Source: Candidatus Omnitrophota bacterium
Lineage (GTDB): Bacteria; Omnitrophota; Gorgyraeia; Zapsychrales; Zapsychraceae
Direction: 5' to 3'
Length of the DNA stretch: 64,000 nt
NCBI GenBank assembly: GCA_023247445.1
Contig: JAHFGL010000008.1
Location: forward strand, 13,774-77,773
Shown here: positions 413 to 31,874 of the stretch, one piece after another
Numbering within the stretch: the first letter of the stretch is position 1
Layout: each line of letters begins with the position of its first letter
The notes under the pieces: generated by a model
Told to the model about the DNA's origin: nothing
Seen by the model: the letters and a program-made list of their open reading frames with translations, nothing else
The model's database searches: none
Position numbers and translations under genes: made by a program

Positions 413-1503
413 TTTTTATGATTGAACCCAAGGCACTTTTAAAAAAAATATCCCGAGTCTCTGGACATGGTGAGGCACGTATTGGCCGGGCTATGCGTTT
501 GGATCGCAACGAACGGACAACGCCATTAGCTAAGGATATTGTTGAAGCCGTATGGTCCCAAATTTCTCCGGAAGAAATTGTCGCTTATCCCGAACTGGAG
601 CCGCTTTATCAAAAACTGGCGCGATTTTTGAATGTTCTTCGCCAGAATATTCTTCTGTGCAGCGGTTCTGATACGGGTATTAAGAGTGTCTTTGAAACAT
701 ATGTGCAGCAAGGCGATGAAGTGGTCATTTTGACACCGAGTTATGGAATGTTTTCTGTCTATTGCGATATGTTTGGAGCCACGAAGATTCTTATGCACTA
801 CGATGAGGATTTTTTTCTGCCTGTAAAACGAATAACTGAGAAAATTAATCCCAAAACAAAGCTTGTCATATTAGCTAATCCTAACCATACCGGAACGGTT
901 ATCCAAGAGAAAGATATCCATTCCATCATCGAATACGCGGCCCAGTACAACACCCTCGTTCTGGTCGATGAGGCTTATCACCATTTTTATCCAGAGACCA
1001 TTATTTCTTATATCGGCCAATATGATAACTTAATTGTGGTCCGTAGCTTTTCTAAGGCTTTTGGCATTGCGGCGTTACGTGTAGGATATCTTATAAGTCA
1101 GACACAAAATATTCAAAATTTAGATAAAGTGCGATTGACGCACGAAATTACCAGTGTTTCGGCGAAGTTCGCGGCGTATCTTATTGATCATCCAGAAATT
1201 TATCAGGCATATGTGAAGGATGTTGAAGAGGGAAAAAGTTATATTGCCAAAGAATGTCAGAAAATAGGAATTACGGTGCTGCCATCAACGACTAATTTCT
1301 GTTTTTTTCGTCTGCCTGATTTTTGGGACGCGAAAGAAATGGTTCTTAGCTTAAAAAAACGAGATGTCCATATTAAAGGGCCGTTTCAAGAGGTTCCTCT
1401 TAATGGTCTTATACGGATTACCCTTGGTCCCGAAAAGCAGATGCGGGAATTTATGAATATTTTTAAAGAAATTTTAAAGGAGTGTCAAATTGAAGCGAAA
1501 TAA
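409..1503 (+). CDS. Class I/II PLP-dependent aminotransferase, histidinol-phosphate aminotransferase (HisC)/CobD-like
   Basis: Contains the SFSKAFGIAALRVGYLIS motif with the PLP lysine typical of HisC and threonine-phosphate decarboxylase. 364 aa. ATGA overlap with the upstream gene. Confidence 0.75.
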   Translation: MIFMIEPKALLKKISRVSGHGEARIGRAMRLDRNERTTPLAKDIVEAVWSQISPEEIVAYPELEPLYQKLARFLNVLRQNILLCSGSDTGIKSVFETYVQQGDEVVILTPSYGMFSVYCDMFGATKILMHYDEDFFLPVKRITEKINPKTKLVILANPNHTGTVIQEKDIHSIIEYAAQYNTLVLVDEAYHHFYPETIISYIGQYDNLIVVRSFSKAFGIAALRVGYLISQTQNIQNLDKVRLTHEITSVSAKFAAYLIDHPEIYQAYVKDVEEGKSYIAKECQKIGITVLPSTTNFCFFRLPDFWDAKEMVLSLKKRDVHIKGPFQEVPLNGLIRITLGPEKQMREFMNIFKEILKECQIEAK

Positions 1504-2287
1504 TTCTACCATCAAAAAAAGAACAAAAAGAATTCCAGTCCTTGGGGCTATCCCCGCCAGAATGGGTTCCAGCCGTTTTCCCGGGAAACCTCTAAAACTT
1601 ATCGCTGGAAAATCCATGATATGGCATGTTTGGCAGCGGGCTTTGTTAAGTGGTGTTCTGGATGACTTAGTAATTGCCACTTGTGATGAGGAGATTAAAA
1701 CAGCCGCTGAGGAGTTCGGGGCGAAAGTTGTAATGACCTCCGACAAACACACGCGGGCTAACGATCGGGTCGCTGAGGTCGCCAGTAAAATTCCCTGCGA
1801 AATTATTTTAAATATTCAGGGGGATGAACCATGCTTGAATCCACAATTAATCCGCGATGTGGTTAACCATATTCGTAAAAATCCGCATGTGCAATGTTCG
1901 AATCCCGTGGCGGTTATTGAAACAAAGGAAGAAAGAGAAACCCCCCATGATATTAAGGTTTGTTTTGATTTAAATGGAAGAATTGTTTATTTTTCCCGCT
2001 GTCCGGTTCCCTCAGATTCGGTCGTTGAGAGAAAATATCCTTGTTACCGGCAGATCCCTATCTTGGCATTCCGGAGTGAATTTTGTCAAAAATTGGCTAA
2101 GCTTAAACCGGGGCCCCTAGAGTTGCAGGAAGGCACCGATTTATTGCGGGCGGTTGAGCATAATTTACCGGTTCATATTTTAAAAACGAAATATCAAACC
2201 AAAGGCGTGGATATCCCTAGTGATATCCAAGAAGTGGAGAAACGCATGGAGAAAGATCCGATTTACAATCGGTATCGTTTCAAATAA
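1490..2287 (+). CDS. CMP-ulosonic acid synthetase family cytidylyltransferase (KdsB/NeuA-like, CTP_transf_3)
   Basis: N-terminus IPVLGAIPARMGSSRFPGKPL matches the KdsB/NeuA signature (IIPAR..S.RlPgKpL). 265 aa. Confidence 0.75.
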   Translation: MKRNNSTIKKRTKRIPVLGAIPARMGSSRFPGKPLKLIAGKSMIWHVWQRALLSGVLDDLVIATCDEEIKTAAEEFGAKVVMTSDKHTRANDRVAEVASKIPCEIILNIQGDEPCLNPQLIRDVVNHIRKNPHVQCSNPVAVIETKEERETPHDIKVCFDLNGRIVYFSRCPVPSDSVVERKYPCYRQIPILAFRSEFCQKLAKLKPGPLELQEGTDLLRAVEHNLPVHILKTKYQTKGVDIPSDIQEVEKRMEKDPIYNRYRFK

Positions 2288-2306
2288 CCATCAAGAGAGA
2301 TTACAA

Positions 2307-3407
2307 ATGAAAAAGAATATTAAAGTGGCGATTATTGGGTGCGGGCGGGTTTCTTTCCATCATGCAGAGATGCTGCGTGATGTATCCGAGGTTAAAGTAG
2401 TGGCCTGCTGCGATTTAATTAAAGAAAAAGTCGAGAAATTAGCTGGTGAACTTAACTGCCGGGCTTATCTTAATTATCATGAGATGTTGCAGGAAGAGGA
2501 AGTTGATCTTGTGACATTAGCCACACCCACTGGCGTCCATTTTGAGCATGTTCAAGATATATTAAACCATTATAAAGTGAATATCCTTTTGGAAAAACCG
2601 ATGGTTCTTAAAGTCTCGGATGGACTTGAATTAAAACGTTTAGCTGTTCAAAAAGAAGTACGGATATTTCCTGTCTATCAAAATCGTTTAAATAAGTCGG
2701 TTCAAAGAGTTAAAAGTGCCCTTTTGAATGGAGAACTGGGGGATATTGTATTGGGAACAGTAAGGGTTAGATGGTGCCGGCCCCAAAGGTATTATGATCT
2801 GGCCGCTTGGCGGGGAACGTATTCGATGGACGGCGGAGCGTATGTCAATCAGGGAATCCATTTTATTGATATTTTGAGATATTTGGCTGGAGAAATTCAA
2901 GCAGTGAACTCTTGTTTCGCTCGGCTTGGAGCTAAGCCTGAGGCTGAAGATACAGGGGTAAGTTTGCTTCGTTTTGAAAACGGCGCTTTAGGTCAATTAG
3001 AAATAACGATGGCCGCGCGTCCTCATGATTATGAAGCTTCTATTTCCATCGTTGGAAGTAAAGGATTGGCTGTTTTGGGAGGATGGTGCGCGAATAAGTT
3101 ATTGACGTTTTCTCCAAACCCGGAGGATGAACAGATTTTTAGTGAAGAAGTGCCCATGGCTTATGGATTTGGACACCGCGAGGTTTATCGTAGAGTCGCG
3201 AAGGTTTTATTAGAAGAAAATAATCCGCCAGTTGAATTTGAAGATGGGCTGAACACAATACGTTTACTGCACGCTCTTTACCGCAGTAACGAGGAACAAA
3301 AATGGATTAAGTTAGCCGATCAACTGGAATCGTTTCGTTTGGGGGAGCGCAATGAAAAGCTTTTAACCCCTTATCTAATCAAACCTCCACTGGTAAGTAC
3401 TAAATAG
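2307..3407 (+). CDS. Gfo/Idh/MocA family NAD(P)-dependent oxidoreductase
   Basis: N-terminal Rossmann KVAIIGCGRVSFHHAEML, a conserved EKP motif and ~365 aa. Start ATG 2307 with an AAGAGAG RBS. The track ORF extends upstream to 2220, inside the previous gene. Confidence 0.75.
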   Translation: MKKNIKVAIIGCGRVSFHHAEMLRDVSEVKVVACCDLIKEKVEKLAGELNCRAYLNYHEMLQEEEVDLVTLATPTGVHFEHVQDILNHYKVNILLEKPMVLKVSDGLELKRLAVQKEVRIFPVYQNRLNKSVQRVKSALLNGELGDIVLGTVRVRWCRPQRYYDLAAWRGTYSMDGGAYVNQGIHFIDILRYLAGEIQAVNSCFARLGAKPEAEDTGVSLLRFENGALGQLEITMAARPHDYEASISIVGSKGLAVLGGWCANKLLTFSPNPEDEQIFSEEVPMAYGFGHREVYRRVAKVLLEENNPPVEFEDGLNTIRLLHALYRSNEEQKWIKLADQLESFRLGERNEKLLTPYLIKPPLVSTK

Positions 3408-3413
3408 GAAAGC

Positions 3414-4472
3414 ATGGTATCCACAGATGAAAAATTAAAAGTCGGAATCGCCGGATATGGCGTTGTCGGTAAAAGAAGAAGACAATTTATCGATCAAAAT
3501 CTCCATATGAAGACTATCGCGGTATGCGATAAAACGCTGCGTAAATCAGATCTTTTTATCAATGGCGTTAAATGTTGTCGTCATTATAAAGAGCTTCTTA
3601 AAACTCCCTTGGATGTTTTATTTGTGTGTCTGCCTAATTATTTAGCCGCGGAGGTGACGATGGCGGGGTTAGAGAAGGGACTGCATGTCTTTTGTGAAAA
3701 GCCACCGGGACGAAGTGTTGCGGATATCGAAAAAGTTATTGAAGCCGAAAAAAAATATCCAAAGTTGAAATTGAAATACGGTTTTAATCATCGTTATCAT
3801 GATTCGGTGAAAGAAGCTTTAAGGATTATTCAGTCCAAAGAATTCGGCGAGATTATCAACATCAGGGGTGTTTATGGAAAAAGTAAAATCATTTCTTTTG
3901 CCAGTGGATGGCGCGCTAAACGCAAATACGCCGGCGGTGGGATACTCTTAGATCAAGGTATTCATATGGTGGATTTGATGCAGTTATTCTGTGGGAAATT
4001 TGTTGAGGTTAAAAGTTATGTTTCAAATAGCTATTGGCACCACGATGTCGAAGATAATGTTTACGCCATTTTGCGTGATAAGAACAATCGTATTGCTATG
4101 CTTCACTCGAGCGCCACACAATGGCAGCATCAGTTTTCTTTAGATATTACTTTAACCAAAGGATCTCTAAGGCTGCAAGGGATTCTTTCCGGCTCTAAAA
4201 GCTATGGACAAGAACAGCTCGTTAAGGTCCGCCGCAGTGAGGCGGATATCGGCACGCAAAGTGAAGAGGTCATTAATTATCTAAACGACAATTCCTGGCG
4301 GGATGAAGTCAATGAATTTGCCGATAGCATCGTTAATGATAAGCCTACCTATGCGGGAACAATCTTTGATGCCCTTTCCACTATGCAGTTAGTGTACAAA
4401 ATCTATAGCGCCGATGCCGAGTGGAAAGAGAAATTTCTCAAAGAAGATTCCGCTAAGATTTTAACAGTTTAG
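3414..4472 (+). CDS. Gfo/Idh/MocA family oxidoreductase
   Basis: KVGIAGYGVVGKRR Rossmann, CEKP motif, 352 aa. Confidence 0.7.
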   Translation: MVSTDEKLKVGIAGYGVVGKRRRQFIDQNLHMKTIAVCDKTLRKSDLFINGVKCCRHYKELLKTPLDVLFVCLPNYLAAEVTMAGLEKGLHVFCEKPPGRSVADIEKVIEAEKKYPKLKLKYGFNHRYHDSVKEALRIIQSKEFGEIINIRGVYGKSKIISFASGWRAKRKYAGGGILLDQGIHMVDLMQLFCGKFVEVKSYVSNSYWHHDVEDNVYAILRDKNNRIAMLHSSATQWQHQFSLDITLTKGSLRLQGILSGSKSYGQEQLVKVRRSEADIGTQSEEVINYLNDNSWRDEVNEFADSIVNDKPTYAGTIFDALSTMQLVYKIYSADAEWKEKFLKEDSAKILTV

Positions 4473-4486
4473 AAATAGGAGACACT

Positions 4487-5107
4487 ATGAATACATTAGA
4501 AGAAATTTTTAGAGAGAGCAGTCTGCAGACAGATTATTTCAAACGGTATTGTCATTATCTGCAAAAATTGATTTCTGAGATTGATGTTGAATCGGTTAAA
4601 AAAGTTGTGGATTGTTTTCTGGAAGCTCGATGTAATAACAAAACAATTTATTTCGCTGGTAATGGCGGCAGCGCGGCAACGGCCTCGCATTTTGCTCAGG
4701 ACATGGGGGAGATTGGAAGAAAAATCCGCGGCAAAGGCTTCCGAACGCAGAGTATCAATGATAATGTCGCCGCGCTAACGGCTATCAGCAATGACTACAG
4801 CTACGATAGTATTTTCTCTATGCAGATCCAATACAACTTTGACGAAAAGGACATTTTAGTTGTTATTTCAGCCAGCGGCAACAGTCCGAATGTCATTAAT
4901 GCCGTCAATCTGGCTAAAGCTAAAGGCGGAATAACAGTTTGTTTGGTGGGATTTGATGGTGGTCGTTTAGCCCAAATTTGCGACCAGGTCATTCATATCC
5001 AAAGCAAAAAAGGAGAATACGGTCCCGTGGAAGATATTCACCTTATTTTAAACCATATGATTGTTTCCTACTTGATGATGGAATTAAAAAAAGAGAGTGT
5101 GTCTTGA
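4487..5107 (+). CDS. gmhA: SIS-domain sedoheptulose-7-phosphate isomerase (GmhA family)
   Basis: GNGGSAATASHFAQD, ISASGNSPNVINA and VGFDGGRLA align motif-by-motif with E. coli GmhA. 206 aa. Confidence 0.75.
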   Translation: MNTLEEIFRESSLQTDYFKRYCHYLQKLISEIDVESVKKVVDCFLEARCNNKTIYFAGNGGSAATASHFAQDMGEIGRKIRGKGFRTQSINDNVAALTAISNDYSYDSIFSMQIQYNFDEKDILVVISASGNSPNVINAVNLAKAKGGITVCLVGFDGGRLAQICDQVIHIQSKKGEYGPVEDIHLILNHMIVSYLMMELKKESVS

Positions 5108-6030
5108 AACACAAAGTTCTTATATCGACATCAACTTTTGGAGTATCCGATGACACGCCTTTAAAACGGCTTGCCCAAGCGGGATTGGAGGCCAACATTA
5201 ATCCCTACAAGCGTAAACTTTCTAAAGAAGAATTGCTAAATTTGTTGCCTGAGGTGACAGGATTAATCGCGGGCCTGGAAACATTAGATGAGGAAGTAAT
5301 GTCCCGGTCGGATTTAAAAGTTATCTCGCGTTGCGGGTCAGGATTGTCCAATATTGACATGCGGGCCGCAGAGAGATTAGGCATTAAAGTATGTAGCACA
5401 CCGCGGGCGCCGACGCAAGCGGTAGCGGAATTAACAATCGCCTGTCTGTTAAATTTATTGCGAGGAGTTTCCACCATGGATCAGGATTTACATCAAGGCC
5501 GTTGGAATAAACAGACCGGATTGCAATTAGAGGGCAAGACTATTTTGATCGTAGGCTGGGGCAGGATCGGACGGCGTGTGGCTGAATTGTTAAGACCGTT
5601 TCATGTGCGGATTATCGTTGTGGATCCATTTGTGCAAAACATTACCAAGCAGTTTGAATTTTTAACGCTGGCTCAGGGTTTACCTTTAGCGGATGTTATT
5701 ACCCTGCACTGCAGCGGTGAAGATTGTTTTTTTTCCGCTGGCGAGTTTGCTTTGATGAAAAAAGGAGCGTTTCTTTTGAACGCGGCCCGGGGAGGATTAA
5801 TTGACGAAAAAGCGTTAATAAAAGCCATTGATGAAAGACTTGTTGCCGGAGCTTGGTTGGATACTTTTGAACAAGAACCTTATGTGGGAGAATTAATGCG
5901 TTATCATCAGGTCCTTTTGACGCCTCATGTAGGATCTTACACCGAAGAATGCCGAAGGCAAATGGAGTTAGAGGCGGTTGAGAATCTTATTTTTGCTTTT
6001 GAAGAAATAGAAAGTCGATGTCAGATATAG
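5104..6030 (+). CDS. D-isomer-specific 2-hydroxyacid dehydrogenase (phosphoglycerate/erythronate-4-P dehydrogenase-like)
   Basis: NAD-binding motif GKTILIVGWGRIGRRVAELL plus a catalytic-domain R/E/H pattern. Probable TTG start at 5104 after an AAAAAGAGAG RBS. The track ORF start at 4978 overlaps gmhA. Confidence 0.7.
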   Translation: MKHKVLISTSTFGVSDDTPLKRLAQAGLEANINPYKRKLSKEELLNLLPEVTGLIAGLETLDEEVMSRSDLKVISRCGSGLSNIDMRAAERLGIKVCSTPRAPTQAVAELTIACLLNLLRGVSTMDQDLHQGRWNKQTGLQLEGKTILIVGWGRIGRRVAELLRPFHVRIIVVDPFVQNITKQFEFLTLAQGLPLADVITLHCSGEDCFFSAGEFALMKKGAFLLNAARGGLIDEKALIKAIDERLVAGAWLDTFEQEPYVGELMRYHQVLLTPHVGSYTEECRRQMELEAVENLIFAFEEIESRCQI

Positions 6031-6764
6031 ATCTGCTGGAAAATTTAGATATCGCTAAAGTAGCGGCTAAGACAGCTGGACAATTTCTCATCAAGCAACA
6101 GCATTTGGCTCGACGTGTGTCTCAGGAACTCTTTCATGATGTGAAAATCAACGGAGACGTTGAGGCCGAGCAGATCATCCTGGAATATTTAAGGAGGCGC
6201 AGTAATTTTGCCATATTATCAGAAGAAACAGCTTCGCCAGATAAAGGGAATCAAGATTATCGTTGGATTGTTGATCCCATTGATGGGACTTTAAATTATT
6301 TTCAAAAGATTCCATTTTGTTGTGTTTCTATTGGTCTTTGGCAAGGGCAGAAGCCAATTTTAGGAGCCGTTTACGATTTTAATAGAGATGAACTATTCTC
6401 AGGAATCGCTGATGAGAAGGCATGGCTTAATGATGTTTTTGTGAAAGTGAGCAAAACCAAAACCAAAGAAAAAGCGGTTCTCTGTACAGGCTTTCCGGCT
6501 CTCACAGACTATTCTCAGGATGCTATACAAAATTTTGTCAAACAAATACAGAATTATAGAAAGATCCGTCTTTTGGGTTCCGCAGCTTTATCCATTGCGT
6601 ATGTCGCCTCAGGGAAGGTAGATGCTTATTGTGAGCGTGGTATTATGCTTTGGGATATCGCCGGTGGGATTCCTTTGTTGTTGGGCGCTGGTGGAAAAGT
6701 TCACATGGAAAAAGCAACCGAAGATAACAGTTTCAATGTTTATATCAGCAATGGATACATCTAA
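6018..6764 (+). CDS. Inositol monophosphatase family phosphatase (SuhB/CysQ/HisN-like)
   Basis: WIVDPIDGTLNY metal-binding motif. 248 aa. Confidence 0.7.
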   Translation: MSDIDLLENLDIAKVAAKTAGQFLIKQQHLARRVSQELFHDVKINGDVEAEQIILEYLRRRSNFAILSEETASPDKGNQDYRWIVDPIDGTLNYFQKIPFCCVSIGLWQGQKPILGAVYDFNRDELFSGIADEKAWLNDVFVKVSKTKTKEKAVLCTGFPALTDYSQDAIQNFVKQIQNYRKIRLLGSAALSIAYVASGKVDAYCERGIMLWDIAGGIPLLLGAGGKVHMEKATEDNSFNVYISNGYI

Positions 6765-6798
6765 TCCGATGTGAAGCAGAAAGTCATGGGTCATAACT

Positions 6799-7893
6799 AT
6801 GCCAGATTATTGTGAGTATTCTTTTTCTGCCGATTTTGTAAATCGGCTGCGTAAGTACGTAACATCAAGGGAATACCAAGATGTTGCAACTTATTCAAAA
6901 AGCGAATACTGGCAGCATTTTTCCGATGTTATTGACATTCGTTTCCTTGATAACAAGGTCATGTTAAAGGGGGAGTCAGGCTTTTATATCCCACAAAGAA
7001 AAGATGTGCAGAAGAGAGTCAAAAGAAATGTGACTAAGCTCATTCGGGAACCTTTGAGTTTAATACCATTTTTAAGAAGGAAAATTGGAATGCAGACATC
7101 AGAGATAAAATTATTAAATTATTTTGATGCTTTTGATAAAGTGATGGGCCACGATCGTGTTGCCAATATCGTCCTATCTCCCAATCGAATTAATTTCAAG
7201 GAATTGGCACAAAAACCGGGAATAATTTCTTCTGTTGATGATATGCGCCAGCAATTTTTTGCAAAAGACAAGTACAGTTTAAATGCTCAGATAGTTGAAG
7301 CTTATTATTATTACAACCTGTTGTCTGGTTTTCTAGACCCGACTTCAATTAAAACAGCATTGGAGATAGGTGGGGGAAACGGTAACCTGGCGTCATTATT
7401 TTATAGTTCAATGGATAATTGTACCATCATAAATGTAGATTTGCCCAAGACGCTTTGTCTGGCCATTGTGTTTATCGCAGATTTATTCCCGCAGGCAAAA
7501 ATGCTGTTGCCTCATGAAGAGCGTTCACAAGATTTGAATCATTACGATTTTATTTTTCTTACACCAAAGCAAATTTATATGATCGAGGATAACACCATTG
7601 ACTTGGCGATTAATACCGATTCATTTCAAGAAATGCCTCATCGGCAGATTAGTGAATATTTTAAGTTAATTCAAAGATGTTGTAAGAAGAATGCCTATTT
7701 CTTTACTTCTAATAGAGTAGAAAAGATTCCTTGTGGGCCCAATAATCAGCAAGAAACTTCTGAAACGCCCACCCGCTTTTCAGACTATCCATGGGATTCA
7801 GCCAATGAAGTGTTGGTTTACGAAATATGTAGACTAAAGAGGTTAGTTCAATTAGATGATGTGTTTATTCGTCTGGAGAGAGTAAAAAAATAA
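6799..7893 (+). CDS. Putative SAM-dependent (sugar O-)methyltransferase
   Basis: LEIGGGNGNLA looks like glycine-rich motif I of class I methyltransferases, followed by acidic INVDL. Otherwise unrecognised. 364 aa. Confidence 0.4.
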   Translation: MPDYCEYSFSADFVNRLRKYVTSREYQDVATYSKSEYWQHFSDVIDIRFLDNKVMLKGESGFYIPQRKDVQKRVKRNVTKLIREPLSLIPFLRRKIGMQTSEIKLLNYFDAFDKVMGHDRVANIVLSPNRINFKELAQKPGIISSVDDMRQQFFAKDKYSLNAQIVEAYYYYNLLSGFLDPTSIKTALEIGGGNGNLASLFYSSMDNCTIINVDLPKTLCLAIVFIADLFPQAKMLLPHEERSQDLNHYDFIFLTPKQIYMIEDNTIDLAINTDSFQEMPHRQISEYFKLIQRCCKKNAYFFTSNRVEKIPCGPNNQQETSETPTRFSDYPWDSANEVLVYEICRLKRLVQLDDVFIRLERVKK

Positions 7894-7935: not shown

Positions 7936-9891
7936 ATGTCTGTTGTGGAAAACAAAGGAGAACATAAAATTTTATGGGTATGCTGGGAGAAACCGGATAT
8001 TTCTCCAACGGCCGATATGGTGGCTTTAAGCTTTCTTAAACCCAGCGTTGAAGACGGGTTAAAGGGGCAATGGTCAGTTCCTTTGATTTCAGCGCGAGAA
8101 GTTGTTTCCGAGGTTAAAGAAAAAGCCTTAAATTTGTATATCGATATCATTGCCCAAATAGGCATCGTATCTTTAAATGGCATGACATTTCGCAAAGCTT
8201 TGTGTGGCAGTGATGAAGTGAGTTCTTGGTGGTTTCATAAAGCAGCCTGTAAGGATTGTGAAAGCGAACCGACATTTAATCAGATCATTCAGATTCTAAC
8301 TATTCAGCGGATTGCTCAGGAATATCAATGCACGGACATTATTCTTTGCGGCGGGCCATATGAAATCGCACAGGTTTTAAGCAATATGTTTCCCATAAAG
8401 ATTTTAAATTGTAAAAAGCAATCTTTATTATTTCTCTGCGGATTTTCACTGCTTCGCCGGTTTAAGTTCGTTCTGAAATTTTTATACGAGTGGATGTGTC
8501 TTAAGCGCTGTGTTTGTATTCCCGAGAATAGTATAGATATATTATTTTCCGGTTTCTGGGATTGGAGTGTCAAGGAAAATCCTTTAACGGCTAAACTCGA
8601 AGATCGGTATTTTCGGGCCGTCCCGGAAAAATTGCATAACCAGGGTATGCGGCTTGGTTGGTTAACATGGTTTTATAATAATTATGAAACGAATAAACCG
8701 CGACGATCCATTTTTAAGGTTATCGAACCTTTGGCGAAACATTCCCGCATTATCATCGCCCAATGTTTCTTAAGCATAGGGGAGATTTTTCGATCGGTGA
8801 CGCGGTTTAAGCCGTTCTTTACTTTTCTAAGGTATCAGCACCAGGAAGCGTTCAAAAATATTTTTAAACGGAACGGTTTAAATTTTTATCCGCTCCTCAA
8901 GAAATGGCTGTATGCCGGGTTTTTAGATGGGACACTTCCTTATCATGAATTAATTTGTTTGGCTCATAGAAAGGCAGTTCAAAAATATCAGCCTAAGGCC
9001 GTTGTGAGTTTTCTTAATTTTTTCCCGTATGCCCGTGCGTTGTGTGCCGGTGTCAAAAAAGGGTGTCCTTCATGTGCGGTGTATGATATGCAGCACGCGA
9101 GCTATGCATGGGAAGATACTATTGGAAGGCTCGATAGCCGTTGGGAATTCGATGGCATCCCGGATGGATGCTCAATACCGCATGCGGATTACATGTTTGT
9201 GATGGGGGAATTAGGCAGGGATATTTTTATGAAAAGCGGGTTTTCGGACAAACAAATACTATTGACAGGGTCATCCCGTTATGACGAGGCATCTTCGGTG
9301 GATGTGAATAATGGCCGAGACCGCAAATTTGGGAAAAATATTCTTATCGTGGCCGCGCTCAATAAGGAATTGGAGTTGGAGATGGTCGATTGTGTCTATA
9401 TGGTATTTTCTCAATTTCCCGATGTGTCAATTCATCTGCGTTCCCATCCTTTTTCTGATATCCGCTCAGCCATTCAGGCTCAACGATACGGGGACAAAAT
9501 TCATGTTACTTCTGGCACGGCACTCCATGAAGATTTGTCCCATGCCGATATCGTTATTTTTTCATATTCCACGGTTGCGGAAGAAGCTTTTATTCAAGGT
9601 GTTCCGGTTTGGCAGTGGATTTCCACGGGATATAATGCCTCGGCCTTTAGAGATATTAAAGTAGCTCCTGTTTTTTCTTCCGTTAAAGGACTTATTCAGT
9701 TGTATAAACAGTTTTTAAAAGATCCTCAACAGTTTATTCCGACTGTTGAACAGCGACAATTGGTCAAGAAAAAGTGTTTTTATATTAGAGAGGATGGTCT
9801 TCCTTCGGATAATATTGTAGAAGCCTTGGTTTTACAGTGTGGAATAGGAAAGGATCGCAATATTCCCGAACAAAAGGTGACGGTGGGATGA
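7936..9891 (+). CDS. Hypothetical protein with a TagF/KpsS-like GT-B C-terminal domain (possible CDP-alditol or CMP-sugar transferase)
   Basis: 651 aa. The C-terminal HADIVIFSYSTVAEEAFIQGVPVW parallels the TagF 'ADILITDYSSVFFDF...KPIIFY' motif. Confidence 0.35.
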   Translation: MSVVENKGEHKILWVCWEKPDISPTADMVALSFLKPSVEDGLKGQWSVPLISAREVVSEVKEKALNLYIDIIAQIGIVSLNGMTFRKALCGSDEVSSWWFHKAACKDCESEPTFNQIIQILTIQRIAQEYQCTDIILCGGPYEIAQVLSNMFPIKILNCKKQSLLFLCGFSLLRRFKFVLKFLYEWMCLKRCVCIPENSIDILFSGFWDWSVKENPLTAKLEDRYFRAVPEKLHNQGMRLGWLTWFYNNYETNKPRRSIFKVIEPLAKHSRIIIAQCFLSIGEIFRSVTRFKPFFTFLRYQHQEAFKNIFKRNGLNFYPLLKKWLYAGFLDGTLPYHELICLAHRKAVQKYQPKAVVSFLNFFPYARALCAGVKKGCPSCAVYDMQHASYAWEDTIGRLDSRWEFDGIPDGCSIPHADYMFVMGELGRDIFMKSGFSDKQILLTGSSRYDEASSVDVNNGRDRKFGKNILIVAALNKELELEMVDCVYMVFSQFPDVSIHLRSHPFSDIRSAIQAQRYGDKIHVTSGTALHEDLSHADIVIFSYSTVAEEAFIQGVPVWQWISTGYNASAFRDIKVAPVFSSVKGLIQLYKQFLKDPQQFIPTVEQRQLVKKKCFYIREDGLPSDNIVEALVLQCGIGKDRNIPEQKVTVG

Positions 9892-19299: not shown

Positions 19300-19312
19300 C
19301 AAGGGGGGAACG

Positions 19313-20386: not shown

Positions 20387-20404
20387 TAGCAAAAAGGATT
20401 ATCT

Positions 20405-21271: not shown

Positions 21272-22497
21272 GCTTTTACGATGTTTCCATGGAAATTATT
21301 TCTCGAGAGATAAAAAATAGGGACAATTTGCAAAAGGTTATTAAAAAAATTGAGACCGCTTCTAAAAATGGAAAGAAAATCGCGTTTTATCCTTCTGGGG
21401 TATACAGCCGAGTTATGTTAAAAGAAATCCGTCAGTACGCGCCGGAGCTTCTCTCAAAGGTGCTCGGTTGCTTTGATCGCTCCTCTGAAGCCACGATGGA
21501 AGGTGATGTTAACGTCTATGAATTGGCGGAATTAAACAAACTTAAAGATAAAATTGGTCTATTGGTGGTTACATCCAATACCTTTCATGCCAAGGAAATG
21601 AGACATATCCAGGAATTGACCAGCTATAAAGGCCGGGTTTTAAACACCTCGCGTTTTGATATCACATTTCCCGAGAAAAATGATAAAGAAATTATTGCTG
21701 ATATTAAAAAAGTTTACGATCTGTTAGCGGATCAAAAATCAAAGATGGCCTATCTTATTACATGGTTGTCACGTTTGCTTAATGACGAAGATTTGACATA
21801 CATATTCGAAAGTGAAGATACCCGGGACGTCGATGTGAGTAATCCTATTTTGAAATATAAAAACTATATGATTGAAGGGTTAGATGATGTATGCAAACAA
21901 GAACTCAACGCTGAACTTTATGAGATGAAATATGTGAAATCTTTACCCGGGGATGTCGTTTTTGACGTCGGCGCTTATAAAGGCGATACCGCGGTCTATT
22001 TCGCCGATCGTGTCGGCAAAAAGGGAAAAGTTTATTCTTTTGAGCCGGTTAAAGCCAATTACAATACGCTCGTCAAAAATATCAAGAGAAATAAACTAGA
22101 AGATATCATCGTTCCCATCAATAAAGGCTGCGCGCCTAAAACGGGCTCTTTAAAAATTGTTTCTTCGAATTCTGGTGCGCCATGGTCTTTTGTGTCGGAA
22201 AACAAGGGCATTGAGAATGTGGAAATGATCGCCCTGGATGATTTTATCCGATCCAATAAAATTGATAAACTTGATTTTATCAAAATGGATGTCGAGGGAT
22301 TCGAAGAGAGCGCTCTTCTTGGCGCCCAAGAAACCATTAAACAGTTTAGGCCCAAATTGGCCATTTGTCTTTATCATCTATCCAGCGATATATTGCGTAT
22401 TCCGTTTATGATCCATAAGTTGGCGGATTACAAGCTGTATGTCCGCTGCCAAATGGAAGGGCCATACGGGATTAATCTATACGGAATTAAAAAATAA
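21268..22497 (+). CDS. FkbM-family methyltransferase with an N-terminal extension
   Basis: FDVGAYKGDTAVYFA and IDFIKMDVEGFEESAL motifs in the C-terminal half. The N-terminal ~200 aa are unassigned. GTGA start overlap. Confidence 0.6.
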   Translation: MSFYDVSMEIISREIKNRDNLQKVIKKIETASKNGKKIAFYPSGVYSRVMLKEIRQYAPELLSKVLGCFDRSSEATMEGDVNVYELAELNKLKDKIGLLVVTSNTFHAKEMRHIQELTSYKGRVLNTSRFDITFPEKNDKEIIADIKKVYDLLADQKSKMAYLITWLSRLLNDEDLTYIFESEDTRDVDVSNPILKYKNYMIEGLDDVCKQELNAELYEMKYVKSLPGDVVFDVGAYKGDTAVYFADRVGKKGKVYSFEPVKANYNTLVKNIKRNKLEDIIVPINKGCAPKTGSLKIVSSNSGAPWSFVSENKGIENVEMIALDDFIRSNKIDKLDFIKMDVEGFEESALLGAQETIKQFRPKLAICLYHLSSDILRIPFMIHKLADYKLYVRCQMEGPYGINLYGIKK

Positions 22498-23750
22498 TGC
22501 GTGAATTTTTAATTTGTCAAATAGAACAAGCGAAAAAAGACCCTTTTAGAGTTTTACCCAAAAAGATAGGCCGGTTTCTGTTACTGATATTGGTCCTGCC
22601 GATTATTGCGGTTATCCGCCTGATCAGTCCCTGGATACTTATTCGATTTGGTCAGTTGCCCAGTAGCCGCCTCGGACCTTTTTCCATGTGCCCGGAGCTG
22701 TATTTCTGCGAACGTGACCAAGGTCTTCAGCCCAAAAGCGTTGATTTTTTTTACTGCAACAATGAAAAGATTGCGAATTCCTATTTAAAGAAAATGTGGG
22801 GACGCTTGCTTCACGTATCTTCTTTGACAAAAACATTTATATCTGCCAGCAAGCTATTACCGGGCCATAAAAGACATGGAATTGAACTTCCCCATGAACA
22901 CGATTATCGCGCGCTACTGGCTACAACAGAGCGGACTCATATTTACTTTACTGATGAAGAAAAAGAAAAAGGAAAGCAGTTTTTGGTCCAAAGAGGAGTT
23001 TCAACGAATCAAAAATTTGTTTGTTTCGCATCCAGAGATTCGGTTTACCTTAATACGGTGCAGCCGCAAAACAATTGGGATTATCATAATTATCGTGATT
23101 TTAATATACACGATTGCCTTCCAGCAGCGGAAGAATTGACCAAAAGAGGCTACACGCTATTTCGTATGGGGGCAATCGTTCAGGAAACGCTTAAGACGGA
23201 TAATCCTCGGATTATTGACTACGCAACACAGTTTCGCAATGAGTTCTTAGATATTTTTTTGTTAGGCAGTTGCCGTTTTTATTTGGGTTCTTTAAGTGGG
23301 ATTAACAGCGTCTCTATGATATTCCGCCGTCCTAAAGCGGTTGTCAACGCCGTTCCCATGGAGACGGTTCATACATGGATGCCAAATGATTTATTTATCC
23401 CAAAAAAGATATGGCATCATCGGGAAGGTCGTTTTTTGACTTTCGAAGAGATGCTCGATTCTAATATTGGAGGTTTTCATCGCGGCGATCAATACGCACA
23501 ACACGATTTGGAAGTGGTTAATAATACGGCCGAAGAAATAATGTCGTTGGCTGTGGAAATGGATGAACGGTTAAACGGTATTTGGCAAACGGCCGAAGGA
23601 GATGAGGCCCTGCAGGAACAGTTTCGAGAAATTTTCAGGCGGAAAACATGCCATCGAAAAATTCTCGCGCGGATCGGCCGAAATTTTTTAAGACAAAACC
23701 GTTGGTTATTAGAGGGGGAAAAGAGTGAAATCGTTAGTATTCATTTGTGA
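22497..23750 (+). CDS. Hypothetical protein, possible GT-B-like transferase
   Basis: 417 aa, no recognised motif except DIFLLGSCRFYLGSLSGINSV, a GT-B-like nucleotide-binding stretch. TAATG coupling to the upstream gene. Confidence 0.3.
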   Translation: MREFLICQIEQAKKDPFRVLPKKIGRFLLLILVLPIIAVIRLISPWILIRFGQLPSSRLGPFSMCPELYFCERDQGLQPKSVDFFYCNNEKIANSYLKKMWGRLLHVSSLTKTFISASKLLPGHKRHGIELPHEHDYRALLATTERTHIYFTDEEKEKGKQFLVQRGVSTNQKFVCFASRDSVYLNTVQPQNNWDYHNYRDFNIHDCLPAAEELTKRGYTLFRMGAIVQETLKTDNPRIIDYATQFRNEFLDIFLLGSCRFYLGSLSGINSVSMIFRRPKAVVNAVPMETVHTWMPNDLFIPKKIWHHREGRFLTFEEMLDSNIGGFHRGDQYAQHDLEVVNNTAEEIMSLAVEMDERLNGIWQTAEGDEALQEQFREIFRRKTCHRKILARIGRNFLRQNRWLLEGEKSEIVSIHL

Positions 23751-25518
23751 AATTTTTAAGAAATTTCCGTTTTTGCTGACCGCCAATGTTCTTTTGTTCG
23801 TGGTGGTAGGCGTCTTGGGGGCATGTTCGCTGTTATCCGCCGGGCCTTTGGTTGATTTTTTTCTCGATCCGCAATTACACAACGCAAGTGCTCTGACGAA
23901 GAAGGCGGTAGCGTTTTTGGCATCTTGGGGAATTCCGGCAACGCTCGCCACTTGGACGATTGTCCTTATCGTTTTTGTTGCTTTGGTCAATGTGTTTCAG
24001 GTTTTAGCCAGGCATTCCATTCTTAAGACCAAATACGCCGTATTGCGGGATTTGATGCTTGGGACATTTGAAGATTTTTTCAATACACGCTGGTATTTTT
24101 TCAGCAGCGGCAGACAGGGAATGTTGCTTAATACCTTTACACGCGAAATTACCGTCATTGGAGATGCCTTTGGAGCCATGGCGCTTTTTTTTGCCAATAT
24201 ATTACAATTGGGTTTTGCTCTTGTTATTCCATTTTATCTGTCGTGGCAGGTTACGTTAATTAGCCTCAGCGCCGCCTTACTGTTCGCCCTGCCGTTTGCC
24301 TTATTTAGCAAATACAGTTATCGTTTGGGAAAGCTTAATACGGCAACGGCTAATGAGATGACTTCGGTCGTGCATGAGAATCTCGCCGCCGCTAAACTTT
24401 TATTGGGATTCGGCAACCAGAAAAAAGGCAATGACCGTTTCGCCGAGGCTTTTGACGCGCACCGTTGTGTGACGGTGAAGTCTCAAATCATCAACATAGC
24501 CATTCCAATTCTCTATCGTCCTTTTGCGATTATTACGGTTGTTATTGCTTTATTTGCGGCACAGCGGTTCCATGTGCCGTTTTCTGAGATAACTATATTG
24601 TTGTTTGCTCTTTTACAAGTGGCGATTTCACTCAGCAGTATTACGACCCAAAAAAACGCCTTGGAGAATTTTTTCCCAAGTTATGAACAAATTAAGCATC
24701 TGCGCGAGCGTGCGCGTGAAATGCGTCAACCGCTGGGCAAAAGAGAATTCAAAGGTTTTAAAGAGAATATTATGGTTGAGCATTTGTCTTTCTCTTATCC
24801 GGGCCATGCGCCTGTCTTAAAAGAAGTAAATATTCGTATTGCTAAAGGTAAAATGATTGCGCTCGTCGGAAAATCCGGCGCAGGTAAGTCAACCTTAATT
24901 GATATTCTCATGGGCTTTCATCAACAGACCGCAGGGCGCATTATGTTCGATGGAATCTCTTTTCAAGAGTATGATACCAATTCATATCGTTGCTGTATTG
25001 GCTATGTGCCGCAGGACAGTGTTTTATTTAACATGAGCATTCGTGACAATTTGTTATGGGCAAACCCGAAAGCATCACAAAAGCAATTAGAAGAGGCTTG
25101 TCGTTTGGCTTATGCCGATGAATTTATCAGCCGTTTGCCGGAAGGGGATAACACCGTTGTTGGAGACCGTGGGGTGCGGCTTTCAGGCGGACAAATCCAG
25201 AGGATGGCCTTAGCCAGGGCTTTTGTCCGCTGTCCGGAACTTTTGATTTTAGATGAAGCGACCAGTTCGCTGGATACGCATTCCGAGAGGTTTATTCAAA
25301 AAGCTATTGAAAATATCGCAACCCAGACGACTGTGGTTGTTGTCGCGCATCGTCTTTCAACTATTAAGAAAGCGGATTGTATTTATGTTATGGAAAACGG
25401 CCAGATCGCAGAAGAAGGGACGTATGCGGATCTTGTTGGCAGCGAGGGCCGTTTTAATTCCATGGTTAAGCTTCAGGAGCTGGAAGTTCTTTCTACGAAT
25501 AATATGATCAAAATATGA
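23725..25518 (+). CDS. ABC exporter, fused permease-ATPase (MsbA/type I exporter-like)
   Basis: About 6 TM helices at the N-terminus. Walker A GKSGAGKST, signature LSGGQIQR and Walker B ILDEATS. GTG start after AGAGGGGGAA. Confidence 0.85.
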   Translation: MKSLVFICEIFKKFPFLLTANVLLFVVVGVLGACSLLSAGPLVDFFLDPQLHNASALTKKAVAFLASWGIPATLATWTIVLIVFVALVNVFQVLARHSILKTKYAVLRDLMLGTFEDFFNTRWYFFSSGRQGMLLNTFTREITVIGDAFGAMALFFANILQLGFALVIPFYLSWQVTLISLSAALLFALPFALFSKYSYRLGKLNTATANEMTSVVHENLAAAKLLLGFGNQKKGNDRFAEAFDAHRCVTVKSQIINIAIPILYRPFAIITVVIALFAAQRFHVPFSEITILLFALLQVAISLSSITTQKNALENFFPSYEQIKHLRERAREMRQPLGKREFKGFKENIMVEHLSFSYPGHAPVLKEVNIRIAKGKMIALVGKSGAGKSTLIDILMGFHQQTAGRIMFDGISFQEYDTNSYRCCIGYVPQDSVLFNMSIRDNLLWANPKASQKQLEEACRLAYADEFISRLPEGDNTVVGDRGVRLSGGQIQRMALARAFVRCPELLILDEATSSLDTHSERFIQKAIENIATQTTVVVVAHRLSTIKKADCIYVMENGQIAEEGTYADLVGSEGRFNSMVKLQELEVLSTNNMIKI

Positions 25519-31184: not shown

Positions 31185-31874
31185 ATGATAGAGATCAATA
31201 AAAAAAGACATGTTGTGGTGATTCCCGCACGCAGAGGGAGCAAAGGGTTTCCATTTAAGAACCGTCTTTTATTTGATGAGACGGCTGATTTTATCGATCG
31301 ACACGGCTGGTTTGATCAGGTGATTGTTTCGACTGATGATGAAATCGTTGAAGAAAAGACCATGGCCAGAGGGTATGTAATCCATGCTCGTCCGCAAGAG
31401 CTTAGCGGCGATGCCGTTTCCATCAAAAGGGTAATGCAATCTGTTATCCATGACTTGAAATTATCAAAAGATACTATCATGTGGTTGTTTTATTTGTCTA
31501 TTGTGTATAAAAATATATCAGATTTTCTAAAGGCAAAACAGATTATAGAAGAAGGGAAAGTCTTGAGCATATGTGGTTTTGTTCCGGCTAAATCGCACCC
31601 CTTCACATGTTGGTCTTATGACCAGAGGAATGGTATATTAAAGCAGTATATTAATAACGATATCTACCGCCGGCAGGATCGTCCCCGGGCTTGGACGTAT
31701 CACCATTACATCAGCTGTTTTAAAACCGCAGAAATAGAGCACCTTAACAGCGAACTTATTAATAATAAGACGTATCCCTTTTTTCTACAAAAGCAGAGGA
31801 TAGATCAACTGCTGGAAATCGATACTCCCGAGGAATATGAACAATGGAAGTCATTAGCTCAAAAAATCGTTTAA
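31185..31874 (+). CDS. Acylneuraminate cytidylyltransferase family (NeuA-like CMP-nonulosonate synthetase)
   Basis: VVIPARRGSKGFPFKN. 229 aa. Confidence 0.75.
   Translation: MIEINKKRHVVVIPARRGSKGFPFKNRLLFDETADFIDRHGWFDQVIVSTDDEIVEEKTMARGYVIHARPQELSGDAVSIKRVMQSVIHDLKLSKDTIMWLFYLSIVYKNISDFLKAKQIIEEGKVLSICGFVPAKSHPFTCWSYDQRNGILKQYINNDIYRRQDRPRAWTYHHYISCFKTAEIEHLNSELINNKTYPFFLQKQRIDQLLEIDTPEEYEQWKSLAQKIV

What the first reader, a model, noticed from the sequence alone, without database searches (positions are those of the whole stretch)
7936..9891. Family of uncharacterised TagF/KpsS-like GT-B proteins (four members across the locus)
ORFs 7936-9891, 22497-23750, 36512-37693 and 37695-39578 have no obvious family assignment. 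Each ends with a hydrophobic stretch followed by an S/T-rich segment resembling the TagF 'ITDYSSV...KPIIF' donor-binding motif (ADIVIFSYSTVAEE...GVPV, SSLVLAHRSTAVSF...KPVIFL, ISNVCVNMGITSPST, FLLGSCRFYLGSLSGINSV). TagF, KpsC/KpsS and sialyltransferases all use CMP- or CDP-activated donors. With three CMP-synthetase genes present, these are prime candidates for the missing ulosonate or alditol-phosphate transferases.
Basis: inference. Interest (0 to 1): 0.6.

Follow-up and report, generated by a model that had tools for sequence, protein, structure and literature searches.

The report
Four unrelated GT-B sugar-acid transferase candidates
The four unnamed genes are real and three of them demonstrably fold like glycosyltransferases, but they are four separate, mostly already-catalogued yet biochemically untested families rather than one family, and the flagged gene (7936-9891) is most likely the enzyme that attaches a CMP-activated sugar acid made by the conserved gene cassette just upstream of it.

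Summary
They are not one family. There is no pairwise BLAST or profile-profile similarity among them.

- **B (22497-23750)** is a clear TIGR04372 member.
- **D (37695-39578)** carries Pfam PF27878 (PFTS_polysacc).
- **A (7936-9891)** is a divergent relative of TIGR04326, TIGR04396 and BFO_1060.
- **C (36512-37693)** is the only one with no family.

A has an invariant R-x-H-P, the (K/R)XHP CMP-binding motif of sialyl- and Kdo-transferases. It aligns at E 1.5e-7 with a protein annotated as TagF-like that lies in a Bacillus Pse locus. In 26 of 27 related loci from many phyla, A's homologue sits just downstream of a KdsB-type CMP-synthetase cassette.

KpsC/KpsS-type membership is not supported: there is no QXXXD motif, no PF05159 match and no structural hit.

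Best reading: these are GT-B transferases for CMP-activated ulosonic or nonulosonic acids, and A serves the upstream cassette. B's fold was not tested, and no activity has been shown for any of the four.

The parts
7936..9891 (+). Protein A (651 aa). GT-B fold enzyme with an extra N-terminal domain of about 200 aa. Candidate transferase for the CMP-activated product of the upstream cassette.
22497..23750 (+). Protein B (417 aa). TIGR04372-family putative glycosyltransferase with a hydrophobic N-terminal segment (residues 27-45).
   Evidence: TIGR04372 at 218 bits against a cut-off of 45. 32.6% identical homologue annotated 'TIGR04372 family glycosyltransferase' on S. carbinolicus pDCAR1, in a Pse-type locus. 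Homologues are followed by an ABC exporter, NeuB and CTP_transf_3 genes. Hydropathy. Fold not tested.
36512..37693 (+). Protein C (393 aa). Two-Rossmann (GT-B) protein with no Pfam or NCBIfam family. The family consensus is AAHPRS, but this copy has Gly263 in place of the His.
37695..39578 (+). Protein D (627 aa). PFTS_polysacc (PF27878) protein: an N-terminal helical region plus a C-terminal GT-B module. It has K477-P-K479 where A has R-x-H-P.
   Evidence: Precomputed PF27878 hit. TIGR04417 at 34.9 bits, below the cut-off of 100. 29 of 39 homologues hit TIGR04417, 3 hit TIGR04396 and 1 hits BFO_1060. Model topology. Foldseek alignments to two-module TagF-like multienzymes and to OGT-type proteins. 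NeuB genes flank homologues.
1490..2287 (+). KdsB-type cytidylyltransferase. First gene of the conserved cassette that precedes A.
   Evidence: PF02348 at 2.8e-48. NF003952 at 242 bits against a cut-off of 193, and TIGR00466 kdsB at 155.0 against 155.2. It is the best match for the cytidylyltransferase found upstream of A homologues in 26 of 27 loci.
2220..7893 (+). Rest of the cassette: two GFO/IDH/MocA oxidoreductases, a GmhA-like SIS isomerase, a PGDH/PdxB-like D-2-hydroxyacid dehydrogenase, an IMPase-family phosphatase and a TIGR04371 sugar O-methyltransferase. There is no KdsA or NeuB aldolase.
   Evidence: The same order (CTP_transf_3, GFO, SIS, 2-Hacid_dh, IMPase, A) recurs in loci from many phyla.
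23725..25518 (+). HepA/MsbA/PglK-like ABC exporter directly downstream of B. The pairing is conserved.
   Evidence: In L039 a B homologue is followed by a homologue of this exporter (E 6e-222).
25515..26630 (+). NeuB-family nonulosonic acid synthase, first of two. The second is at 30322-31170.
   Evidence: PF03102 at 2.3e-72 and 4.2e-70.
31185..31874 (+). Second CTP_transf_3-like gene (weak, N-terminal match only).
   Evidence: PF02348 at 1.5e-6, residues 10-85.
42409..43131 (+). Third CTP_transf_3 cytidylyltransferase (NulO type). This is the type found near B, C and D homologues.
   Evidence: PF02348 at 3.6e-27. Best match of the cytidylyltransferases next to B and C homologues, and of the one 7 kb upstream of the D homologue in L041.
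39748..40791 (+). MptE-like / PseD(Maf)-like protein directly downstream of D. Another candidate nonulosonic acid transferase.
   Evidence: PF01973 at 5.4e-16. NF050051 FlagModPseD domain at 2.5e-13, far below its cut-off.

Best explanation
The four ORFs encode four different families of peripheral or membrane-anchored GT-B-fold enzymes. They recur in surface-polysaccharide loci of uncultivated bacteria that are rich in ulosonic and nonulosonic acid genes.

**Protein A.** A is the dedicated transferase of a conserved operon.
- The upstream cassette holds a SIS isomerase, GFO-type and PGDH/PdxB-type dehydrogenases, an IMPase-type phosphatase and a KdsB-type cytidylyltransferase. I infer that it makes a CMP-activated 2-ulosonic acid.
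- A's C-terminal Rossmann domain would bind the CMP moiety. R502 would contact the cytosine, H504-P505 the phosphate, the S-Y-S-T loop the phosphate, and E549/E550 the ribose.
- A base in the N-terminal domain would activate the acceptor hydroxyl. The invariant Q386-H387 is the candidate.
- The extra N-terminal domain of about 200 aa would recognise the acceptor glycan or lipid.

**Proteins B, C and D.** They probably play the analogous role for the NeuB-derived nonulosonic acids activated by the two other cytidylyltransferases.

**Shown versus inferred.** The fold, the motifs, the homology links and the synteny are shown. Donor identity, the transferase activity itself and the residue roles are inferred.
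For: **Fold**
- The AF2 models are confident.

**Motif**
- R-x-H-P is invariant in 61 A homologues, directly after the second strand of the C-terminal domain.
- PMC12887879 describes (K/R)XHP as conserved in sialyltransferases (GT29, 38, 42, 52, 80) and in retaining Kdo transferases (GT99, 107). The K/R bonds the cytosine ring.

**Homology**
- A hits BFO_1060 (E 4.5e-6) and TIGR04396 (E 2e-13).
- D-family members hit the same two models.
- BFO_1060-family proteins of Tannerella forsythia are genetically required for Pse/Leg transfer (PMC5420450).
- The A profile aligns at E 1.5e-7 to a protein annotated as TagF-like and located next to pseC in Bacillus mycoides. R-S-H-P lines up with K-P-H-P, and S-Y-S-T-V-A-E-E with S-N-S-T-V-G-L-E.

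**Synteny**
- 26 of 27 A-family loci with at least 6 kb of upstream flank carry a KdsB-type cytidylyltransferase within 8 kb upstream on the same strand. GFO, 2-Hacid_dh, SIS and IMPase homologues accompany it in 18, 15, 10 and 8 of the 27 loci.
- These loci come from Omnitrophota, Planctomycetota, Nitrospirota, Elusimicrobiota, Acidobacteriota, Thermodesulfobacteriota and Zetaproteobacteria.
- B, C and D homologues lie next to NeuB and NulO-type CTP_transf_3 genes.
Against: - No activity has been measured for any member of these families.
- A scores far below the curated cut-offs of every NCBIfam model it touches: 63.6 against 250, 50 against 125, and 26 against 200.
- The Bacillus bridge protein is TagF-like by annotation only. 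It has no PDB sequence hit.
- C in this window lacks the family's His at the HP position.
- D has K-P-K instead of HP.
- B's fold was not modelled.
- The chemistry proposed for the cassette is inference from family names only.
Confidence: 0.6

Rival explanations
1. Some or all of the four (especially C and D, possibly A) are TagF-type phosphotransferases. They would transfer an alditol-phosphate or sugar-phosphate from a CDP-activated donor rather than a glycosyl residue from a CMP-ulosonate.
For: - A aligns to a protein annotated as a CDP-glycerol glycerophosphotransferase family member.
- TagF-like enzymes rely on two invariant His residues, one in each domain (PMC10901376). A has invariant H387 and H504. 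C has invariant H191 plus H263/H298 in its family.
- The window encodes a protein at 11015-12547 that combines a PF01467 cytidylyltransferase-like domain with a PfkB kinase domain. It could make a CDP-activated compound.
Against: - No PF04464 hit for any of the four. Only 2 of 61 A homologues touch it, at E 0.14.
- The 11015-12547 type of gene accompanies A in only one other locus (L006). The KdsB-type cassette accompanies it in 26 of 27.
- B, C and D homologues sit beside NeuB and CMP-synthetase genes rather than TagD/TarI-type genes.
- The T. forsythia relatives that look like TagB transfer Pse/Leg, not polyol phosphate.
Confidence: 0.2
2. A is not a transferase. It would be a GT-B-fold nucleotide-sugar 2-epimerase or hydrolase-like enzyme acting inside the precursor pathway of the cassette.
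For: - 10 of 61 homologues give weak Epimerase_2 hits, best E 0.0019.
Against: - hhalign against the window's own NeuC-type epimerase finds only the generic nucleotide-loop segment (E 0.12).
- The link to a TagF-like annotated protein is far stronger (E 1.5e-7), as are the links to BFO_1060 and TIGR04396.
- In the window's epimerase the H-P dipeptide lies about 24 residues upstream of the next hydrophobic (presumed strand) segment (sequence). In A, R-x-H-P follows the second strand of the C-terminal domain, as in the aligned K-P-H-P of the TagF-like protein. The epimerase strand positions are inferred, not modelled.
- A is 651 aa with an extra domain and is always the last gene after a complete activation pathway.
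Confidence: 0.12
3. The four proteins are paralogues of one family that diverged within this locus.
For: - All weak hhalign alignments place the same C-terminal-domain elements in register: the HP region and the S/T loop followed by a (K/G)-P strand.
- A and D both touch TIGR04396 and BFO_1060.
- 4 of 59 C homologues touch B's family TIGR04372, at E of about 0.03.
Against: - No significant pairwise similarity.
- hhalign E 0.039 to 0.51.
- Family HMMs find no second member in the window or in related loci, even at E of 10 or less.
- Each family has its own wide distribution and its own gene context.
- The shared element is the generic GT-B nucleotide-binding segment. It is also shared with the window's NeuC-type epimerase.
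Confidence: 0.05

Closest known systems
Tannerella forsythia Pse/Leg-derivative transferases Tanf_01245 / TFUB4_00887 (NCBIfam NF046086, BFO_1060 family)
   Same: - The C-terminal domain of A (residues 447-616) and one D-family member match this model.
- These proteins sit next to CMP-nonulosonate biosynthesis genes, carry an HP motif and look like TagB or GT-B. Knock-outs lose the terminal Pse/Leg residue (PMC5420450).
   Different: - A scores 26 bits against a cut-off of 200.
- A is 651 aa against about 445 aa and has an additional N-terminal domain.
- A is linked to a KdsB-type cytidylyltransferase, not a PseF/LegF-type one, and to a cassette without NeuB.
TagF-like polyol-phosphate polymerases (S. 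epidermidis TagF 3L7I, S. aureus TarL 8VA1, Bcs3, Cps3D)
   Same: - GT-B fold with a conserved His in each domain and a cytidine-nucleotide donor.
- The A profile aligns to a protein annotated as belonging to this family.
   Different: - No PF04464 match and no PDB sequence match.
- The gene context points to CMP-sugar acids rather than CDP-glycerol or CDP-ribitol.
- D replaces the C-domain His by Lys, and the window's C replaces it by Gly.
Sialyltransferases GT38/GT52/GT80 and retaining Kdo/Pse transferases GT99, GT107, GT140, GT118 (WbbB, KpsC/KpsS, KrkA, KpsS1)
   Same: - They use CMP-activated ulosonic acid donors.
- They share the (K/R)XHP motif in the C-terminal Rossmann domain, which is invariant in A.
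   Different: - No QXXXD nucleophile motif is seen in A's consensus or among its ≥90%-conserved columns.
- A has a full-size N-terminal Rossmann domain, not the reduced one of GT99/GT107.
- No PF05159 hit.
NCBIfam/TIGRFAM 'surface carbohydrate biosynthesis' families TIGR04326, TIGR04396, TIGR04372, TIGR04417 (= Pfam PF27878 PFTS_polysacc)
   Same: - B is a member of TIGR04372.
- D carries PF27878.
- Several A homologues at 36-40% identity are labelled TIGR04326 by JGI.
- All of these are uncharacterised families defined from polysaccharide loci.
   Different: - A and D fall well below the curated NCBIfam cut-offs.
- C matches none of them.
- None of these families has a demonstrated reaction, and the full-text search found no paper naming them.

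Membership tests
GT-B fold glycosyltransferase superfamily | Two Rossmann-like beta/alpha/beta domains facing a cleft | tested here: met
   [not shown]
   At least 90% conserved: F542, S545, T546, A548, E549 and E550 in A; H298, S300, K311 and P312 in C; S526, D527, P537 and T539 in D. For B the motif is present in the sequence only.
TagF-like CDP-polyol phosphotransferases (PF04464) | Match to Pfam PF04464 Glyphos_transf | tested here: not met
   No hit for any of the four at E of 1 or less. 2 of 61 A homologues hit at E 0.14.
TagF-like CDP-polyol phosphotransferases (PF04464) | Closest structural neighbours are TagF or TarL | tested here: inconclusive
   [not shown]
TagF-like CDP-polyol phosphotransferases (PF04464) | Two invariant catalytic His residues, one per domain (TarL H300/H433; PMC10901376) | tested here: inconclusive
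   A has H387 and H504 invariant. C has H191 invariant, and H263 in 46 of 59 homologues but Gly in the window. D has H379/H389 at 90% or more, and Lys479 at the C-domain position. Structural equivalence of these residues was not checked.
Retaining Kdo/Pse transferases GT99/GT107/GT140/GT118 (KpsC/KpsS-like) | (K/R)XHP motif | tested here: met
   A: R502-S-H504-P505 invariant. C: A-A-H-P in the family and A-A-G-P in the window. D: K-P-K. B: none.
Retaining Kdo/Pse transferases GT99/GT107/GT140/GT118 (KpsC/KpsS-like) | QXXXD motif with nucleophilic Asp | tested here: not met
   No QXXXD is apparent in the consensus or in the lists of invariant and ≥90%-conserved columns of A, C or D (read by eye, no motif scan run).
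Retaining Kdo/Pse transferases GT99/GT107/GT140/GT118 (KpsC/KpsS-like) | Pfam PF05159 match, or structural similarity to KpsC/WbbB/KrkA | tested here: not met
   [not shown]
Bacterial sialyltransferases GT38/GT52/GT80 | HP motif plus D/E-D/E-G motif (Freiberger 2007, as cited in PMC5420450), and structural similarity | tested here: inconclusive
   [not shown]
TIGR04372 family glycosyltransferase | Score above the curated cut-off | tested here: met
   B scores 218.1 bits against a cut-off of 45, covering profile positions 1-207 of 207. A RefSeq homologue carries the same name.
PFTS_polysacc (PF27878 / TIGR04417) | Pfam or NCBIfam match | tested here: inconclusive
   D carries a precomputed PF27878 hit, but that model is absent from the local Pfam copy. 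TIGR04417 scores 34.9 bits against a cut-off of 100. 29 of 39 homologues hit it.
TIGR04326 / TIGR04396 / BFO_1060 group | Score above the curated cut-off | tested here: not met
   A scores 63.6 against 250, 50.1 against 125 and 26 against 200. The homology is real (E 1e-17 to 5e-6), but A lies outside the curated families.

The most novel reading that the evidence does not exclude
Protein A and the cassette in front of it form a widespread, undescribed pathway. The cassette holds a KdsB-type cytidylyltransferase, GFO-type dehydrogenase(s), a GmhA-like isomerase, a PGDH/PdxB-like 2-hydroxyacid dehydrogenase and an IMPase-type phosphatase.

The pathway would build a 2-ulosonic acid by oxidising a sugar phosphate, in the order aldose-P, aldonate-P, 2-ulosonate-P, ulosonate. 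This would replace the PEP aldol condensation used for Kdo and all nonulosonic acids. The product would then be activated with CMP. [quoted passage not shown]

C would likewise found a second new GT-B family.
Probability: 0.25. Interest if true: 0.75.

Novelty: new member of a known kind. Interest (0 to 1): 0.5.

Why it matters
Transferases for nonulosonic and other ulosonic acids are the least known step of bacterial 'sialic-acid-like' glycan synthesis. Only a few are characterised: Maf proteins, KpsS1, the T. forsythia enzymes and the Kdo transferases.

- This locus places four candidate GT-B families next to their probable donor pathways.
- For A it gives a specific, testable pairing of enzyme and donor pathway that is conserved across at least seven phyla of mostly uncultivated bacteria.
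- If the aldolase-free cassette really makes a CMP-ulosonic acid, that would be a new route to this sugar class and a new CAZy family.
- If it does not, the work still corrects the annotation. Three of the four proteins already belong to, or border on, named but uncharacterised families, and they are not paralogues.

Tried and rejected
- **Pairwise similarity.** blastp and hhalign among the four families gave nothing significant, so the single-family idea is rejected.
- **PDB sequence searches.** Each protein or profile was searched against PDB sequences, with no real hit.
- **First fused C+D alignment (A4).** It was misaligned by MAFFT.
- **Second fused alignment (A5).** I then tested compositions locally. 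I used the fused query plus 20 C and 38 D homologues (A6), which was accepted.
- **C-D gene pair.** The adjacency looked conserved from shared contig lengths, but it is absent in L003, L004, L040, L005 and L041. I dropped the idea of an obligate pair.
- **Paralogues in neighbouring unknown ORFs.** HMM searches of related loci found none.
- **Metagenome scan for B.** It returned only two loci.
- **tblastn of C and D against plasmids.** No match.
- **The Bacillus bridge protein.** It has no PDB sequence relative even at E of 10. Its TagF-family status rests on its RefSeq name only.
- **Literature.** No paper names TIGR04326, TIGR04396, TIGR04372 or TIGR04417.
Full report
**Observation**

The window is a single, densely packed, all-plus-strand polysaccharide locus. 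The four ORFs exist exactly as given:
- A, 7936-9891, 651 aa.
- B, 22497-23750, 417 aa.
- C, 36512-37693, 393 aa.
- D, 37695-39578, 627 aa.

None of the four hits the local Pfam-A copy. The locus holds three PF02348 cytidylyltransferase genes (1490-2287 strong, 31185-31874 weak, 42409-43131), two NeuB genes, a hydrolysing-type UDP-GlcNAc 2-epimerase and many sugar-modifying enzymes. The factual part of the finding holds, apart from two points below: 'no family assignment' and 'family of four'.

**Are they one family?**

No.
- Pairwise blastp finds nothing.
- I built alignments of 61, 59 and 39 homologues for A, C and D. Profile-profile comparison gives E 0.039 (A against C), 0.51 (A against D) and 0.07 (C against D).
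- HMMs of the three families find only their own member in the window and in related loci, even at E of 10 or less.
- The weak alignments do put the same elements in register.
- The same element also aligns with the window's own NeuC-type epimerase. It is the generic nucleotide-binding segment of GT-B proteins, not a family signature.

**Family labels**

- B is a full-length, high-scoring TIGR04372 'family glycosyltransferase' (218 bits, cut-off 45).
- D hits TIGR04417 'PFTS motif protein' weakly (34.9 against 100). In the big protein database it and all its homologues carry PF27878, which a later output names PFTS_polysacc.
- A hits TIGR04326 (E 1e-17), TIGR04396 (E 2e-13) and NF046086 BFO_1060 (E 4.5e-6), all far below their cut-offs. 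Several A homologues at 36-40% identity are labelled TIGR04326 by JGI.
- C has nothing. All of its more than 150 homologues are 'hypothetical' without Pfam. Four of 59 touch TIGR04372 at E of about 0.03.
- D-family members also touch TIGR04396 (3 of 39) and BFO_1060 (1 of 39, E 4e-7). A and D are therefore remotely linked through those models.
- A phmmer scan of 1.84 billion representatives with fused C+D returns 3,634 hits at E of 1e-3 or less. These are large families.

**Structure**

- The first alignment was misaligned.
- After local MAFFT tests, an alignment of the fused query with 20 C and 38 D homologues was correct and accepted.
- The model has pLDDT 88.8, and both halves show two beta/alpha domains.
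- Foldseek aligns more than 1,100 columns to the two-module TagF-like multienzymes Cps3D and Bcs3, and 630-770 columns to OGT-type proteins (helical repeats plus GT-B). This implies that both halves are matched.
- The outputs give no query ranges, so I cannot say whether C or D produces the TagF hit.

**Motifs**

In A, R502-x-H504-P505 is invariant in all 61 sequences and follows the second strand of the C-terminal domain. PMC12887879 states that a (K/R)XHP motif is conserved in sialyltransferases (GT29, 38, 42, 52, 80) and in retaining Kdo transferases (GT99, 107). The K/R hydrogen-bonds the cytosine ring. A therefore carries the sequence signature of CMP-donor enzymes.

Retaining Kdo transferases also need a QXXXD nucleophile motif. 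None is apparent in A's consensus or among its ≥90%-conserved columns.

At the corresponding place, C's family has A-A-H-P-R-S. The His is present in 46 of 59 members, and the window's copy has Gly. D has K477-P-K479, each Lys conserved in 38 of 39.

TagF-like enzymes depend on one His in each domain (PMC10901376).
- A has invariant H387 and H504.
- C has invariant H191.
- D has H379 and H389 at 90% or more.

**A sequence bridge to TagF-like proteins**

tblastn of A against plasmids gave one weak hit (E 0.07). It is a Bacillus mycoides gene annotated 'CDP-glycerol glycerophosphotransferase family protein', which sits beside pseC and other Pse-type genes.

hhalign of the A profile against that protein gives probability 93.9% and E 1.5e-7 over 135 columns. 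R-S-H-P aligns to K-P-H-P, and F-S-Y-S-T-V-A-E-E-A aligns to I-S-N-S-T-V-G-L-E-A. The C profile aligns in the same register but not significantly (E 0.11). D does not align.

The Bacillus protein has no PDB sequence relative. Its TagF-family status is by annotation only.

The T. forsythia BFO_1060-family proteins were likewise described as TagB-like or GT-B with an HP motif. Knock-outs lose the terminal Pse or Leg derivative (PMC5420450).

**Gene context**

This is the strongest functional evidence for A. Thirty-two species genomes encode an A homologue. All are MAGs, from Omnitrophota, Planctomycetota, Nitrospirota, Elusimicrobiota, Acidobacteriota, Thermodesulfobacteriota, Zetaproteobacteria and others.

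Together with L001 and L002 from the encoding-contig look-ups, 27 loci have at least 6 kb upstream. Of these, 26 carry a cytidylyltransferase within 8 kb upstream on the same strand. In every case its best window match is the 1490-2287 type. GFO/IDH/MocA, 2-hydroxyacid dehydrogenase, SIS and IMPase homologues accompany it in 18, 15, 10 and 8 of the 27 loci, in the window's order.

NCBIfam identifies the cassette members as follows:
- 1490-2287 is KdsB-type (242 bits, cut-off 193).
- The SIS protein is GmhA-like.
- The dehydrogenase is PGDH/PdxB-like.
- The phosphatase is IMPase-like.
- 6799-7893 is a TIGR04371 sugar O-methyltransferase.

There is no KdsA or NeuB aldolase in the cassette. My inference, which is not shown, is that the cassette converts a ketose phosphate in four steps. 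The SIS isomerase gives the aldose phosphate. The GFO enzyme gives the aldonate phosphate. The PGDH/PdxB-like enzyme, whose relatives act on phosphorylated 2-hydroxy acids, gives the 2-ulosonate phosphate. The IMPase-type phosphatase gives the free ulosonate. The KdsB-like enzyme would then activate the ulosonate with CMP, and A would transfer it.

For the other three families the sample is small but consistent.
- B homologues are followed by the same ABC exporter, NeuB, an epimerase and CTP_transf_3 genes.
- In Solidesulfovibrio carbinolicus pDCAR1, a B homologue lies in a module matching window 16.4-23.7 kb: pseC, APH-kinase, transketolase, methyltransferases, radical-SAM and RmlD-like genes.
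- C homologues have an NulO-type CTP_transf_3 within 6.2 kb: upstream in L003 (3.9 kb) and L004 (adjacent), downstream in L040.
- D homologues are flanked by NeuB genes.
- The C-D adjacency seen here is not conserved in those loci.

**Rivals**

- **TagF-type phosphodiester transfer from CDP donors.** It stays open, above all for C and D. The window does encode a protein at 11015-12547 with cytidylyltransferase-like and PfkB domains. That gene type accompanies A in only one other locus.

**Verdict**

The GT-B fold is confirmed for A and for the C+D model. TagF-likeness is supported by structure for C and/or D and by sequence for A. A CMP-type donor is supported for A by motif and synteny.

These are four separate families. 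Two already have names, and a third borders on named families. KpsC/KpsS-type membership fails its defining tests.

In kind this is a new set of members of known but uncharacterised GT-B families. The conserved pairing of the aldolase-free KdsB cassette with A is the part most worth an experiment.

Noticed in passing
window 409-7893 (and L001, L006, L008, L014, L016, L018, L032 and others): A conserved cassette lies directly upstream of A-family genes in many phyla. It holds a KdsB-type cytidylyltransferase, GFO/IDH/MocA enzyme(s), a GmhA-like SIS isomerase, a PGDH/PdxB-like 2-hydroxyacid dehydrogenase and an IMPase-type phosphatase. It has no KdsA or NeuB aldolase. It may be an aldolase-free route to a CMP-activated 2-ulosonic acid.
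   Followed up: partly
window 36512-37693, residue 263: The window's copy of C has Gly where 46 of 59 homologues have the His of the A-A-H-P-R-S motif. Other members have S, D, C or N at this position. The His is therefore not essential in this family, or this copy is impaired.
   Followed up: partly
window 16446-25518; L043 (S. carbinolicus pDCAR1); L039: The module of APH-type kinase, split transketolase, radical SAM, RmlD-like protein, methyltransferase and TIGR04372 protein recurs on a Solidesulfovibrio plasmid next to pseC. The pairing of B with an ABC exporter recurs in L039, where the exporter homologue scores E 6e-222.
   Followed up: partly
window 39748-40791: An MptE-like (PF01973) protein with a weak PseD/Maf-type domain lies directly after D. 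It is a fifth candidate nonulosonic acid transferase that the finding did not list.
   Followed up: no
L005 6089-7987 and L041 6068-8026; L005 2311-3486 and 4880-6076; L003 5608-6906 and 6893-8008: Two further families without any Pfam hit recur in related nonulosonic acid loci. One is about 640 aa and lies directly upstream of D homologues (mutual E about 1e-230). The other is 370-430 aa. Neither is present in the window.
   Followed up: partly
window 11015-12547: A bifunctional protein has a PF01467 cytidylyltransferase-like domain at the N-terminus and a PfkB kinase domain at the C-terminus. From memory, this is the reverse of the HldE domain order. It could make a CDP- or ADP-activated compound. 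It accompanies A only here and in L006.
   Followed up: no
window 26599-28644, 40812-42392, 51135-52769; 17528-19299 and 43128-44899: The locus holds three B12-binding radical SAM enzymes and two split transketolase-like pairs. This suggests unusually heavy C-alkylation or chain modification of the sugars made here.
   Followed up: no
window 86-412, 15770-16474, 62426-63886: Three more ORFs have no Pfam family at all. A DUF4915 protein lies at 45569-46789 and a sulfotransferase at 46801-47727.
   Followed up: no
window 2220-3407, 4978-6030, 9837-10985: The mechanical ORF starts are too long. Gene calls on the ENA copy of this contig start at positions equivalent to window 2307, 5104 and 9888. 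That gives 4-nt ATGA-type overlaps with the preceding genes, so the genes appear translationally coupled.
   Followed up: partly
whole window: The source is an uncultivated bacterium. All four proteins are singletons or near-singletons on an 81.6 kb NCBI/ENA contig. The best homologues (51-78% identity) come from metagenomes and Omnitrophota MAGs.
   Followed up: partly
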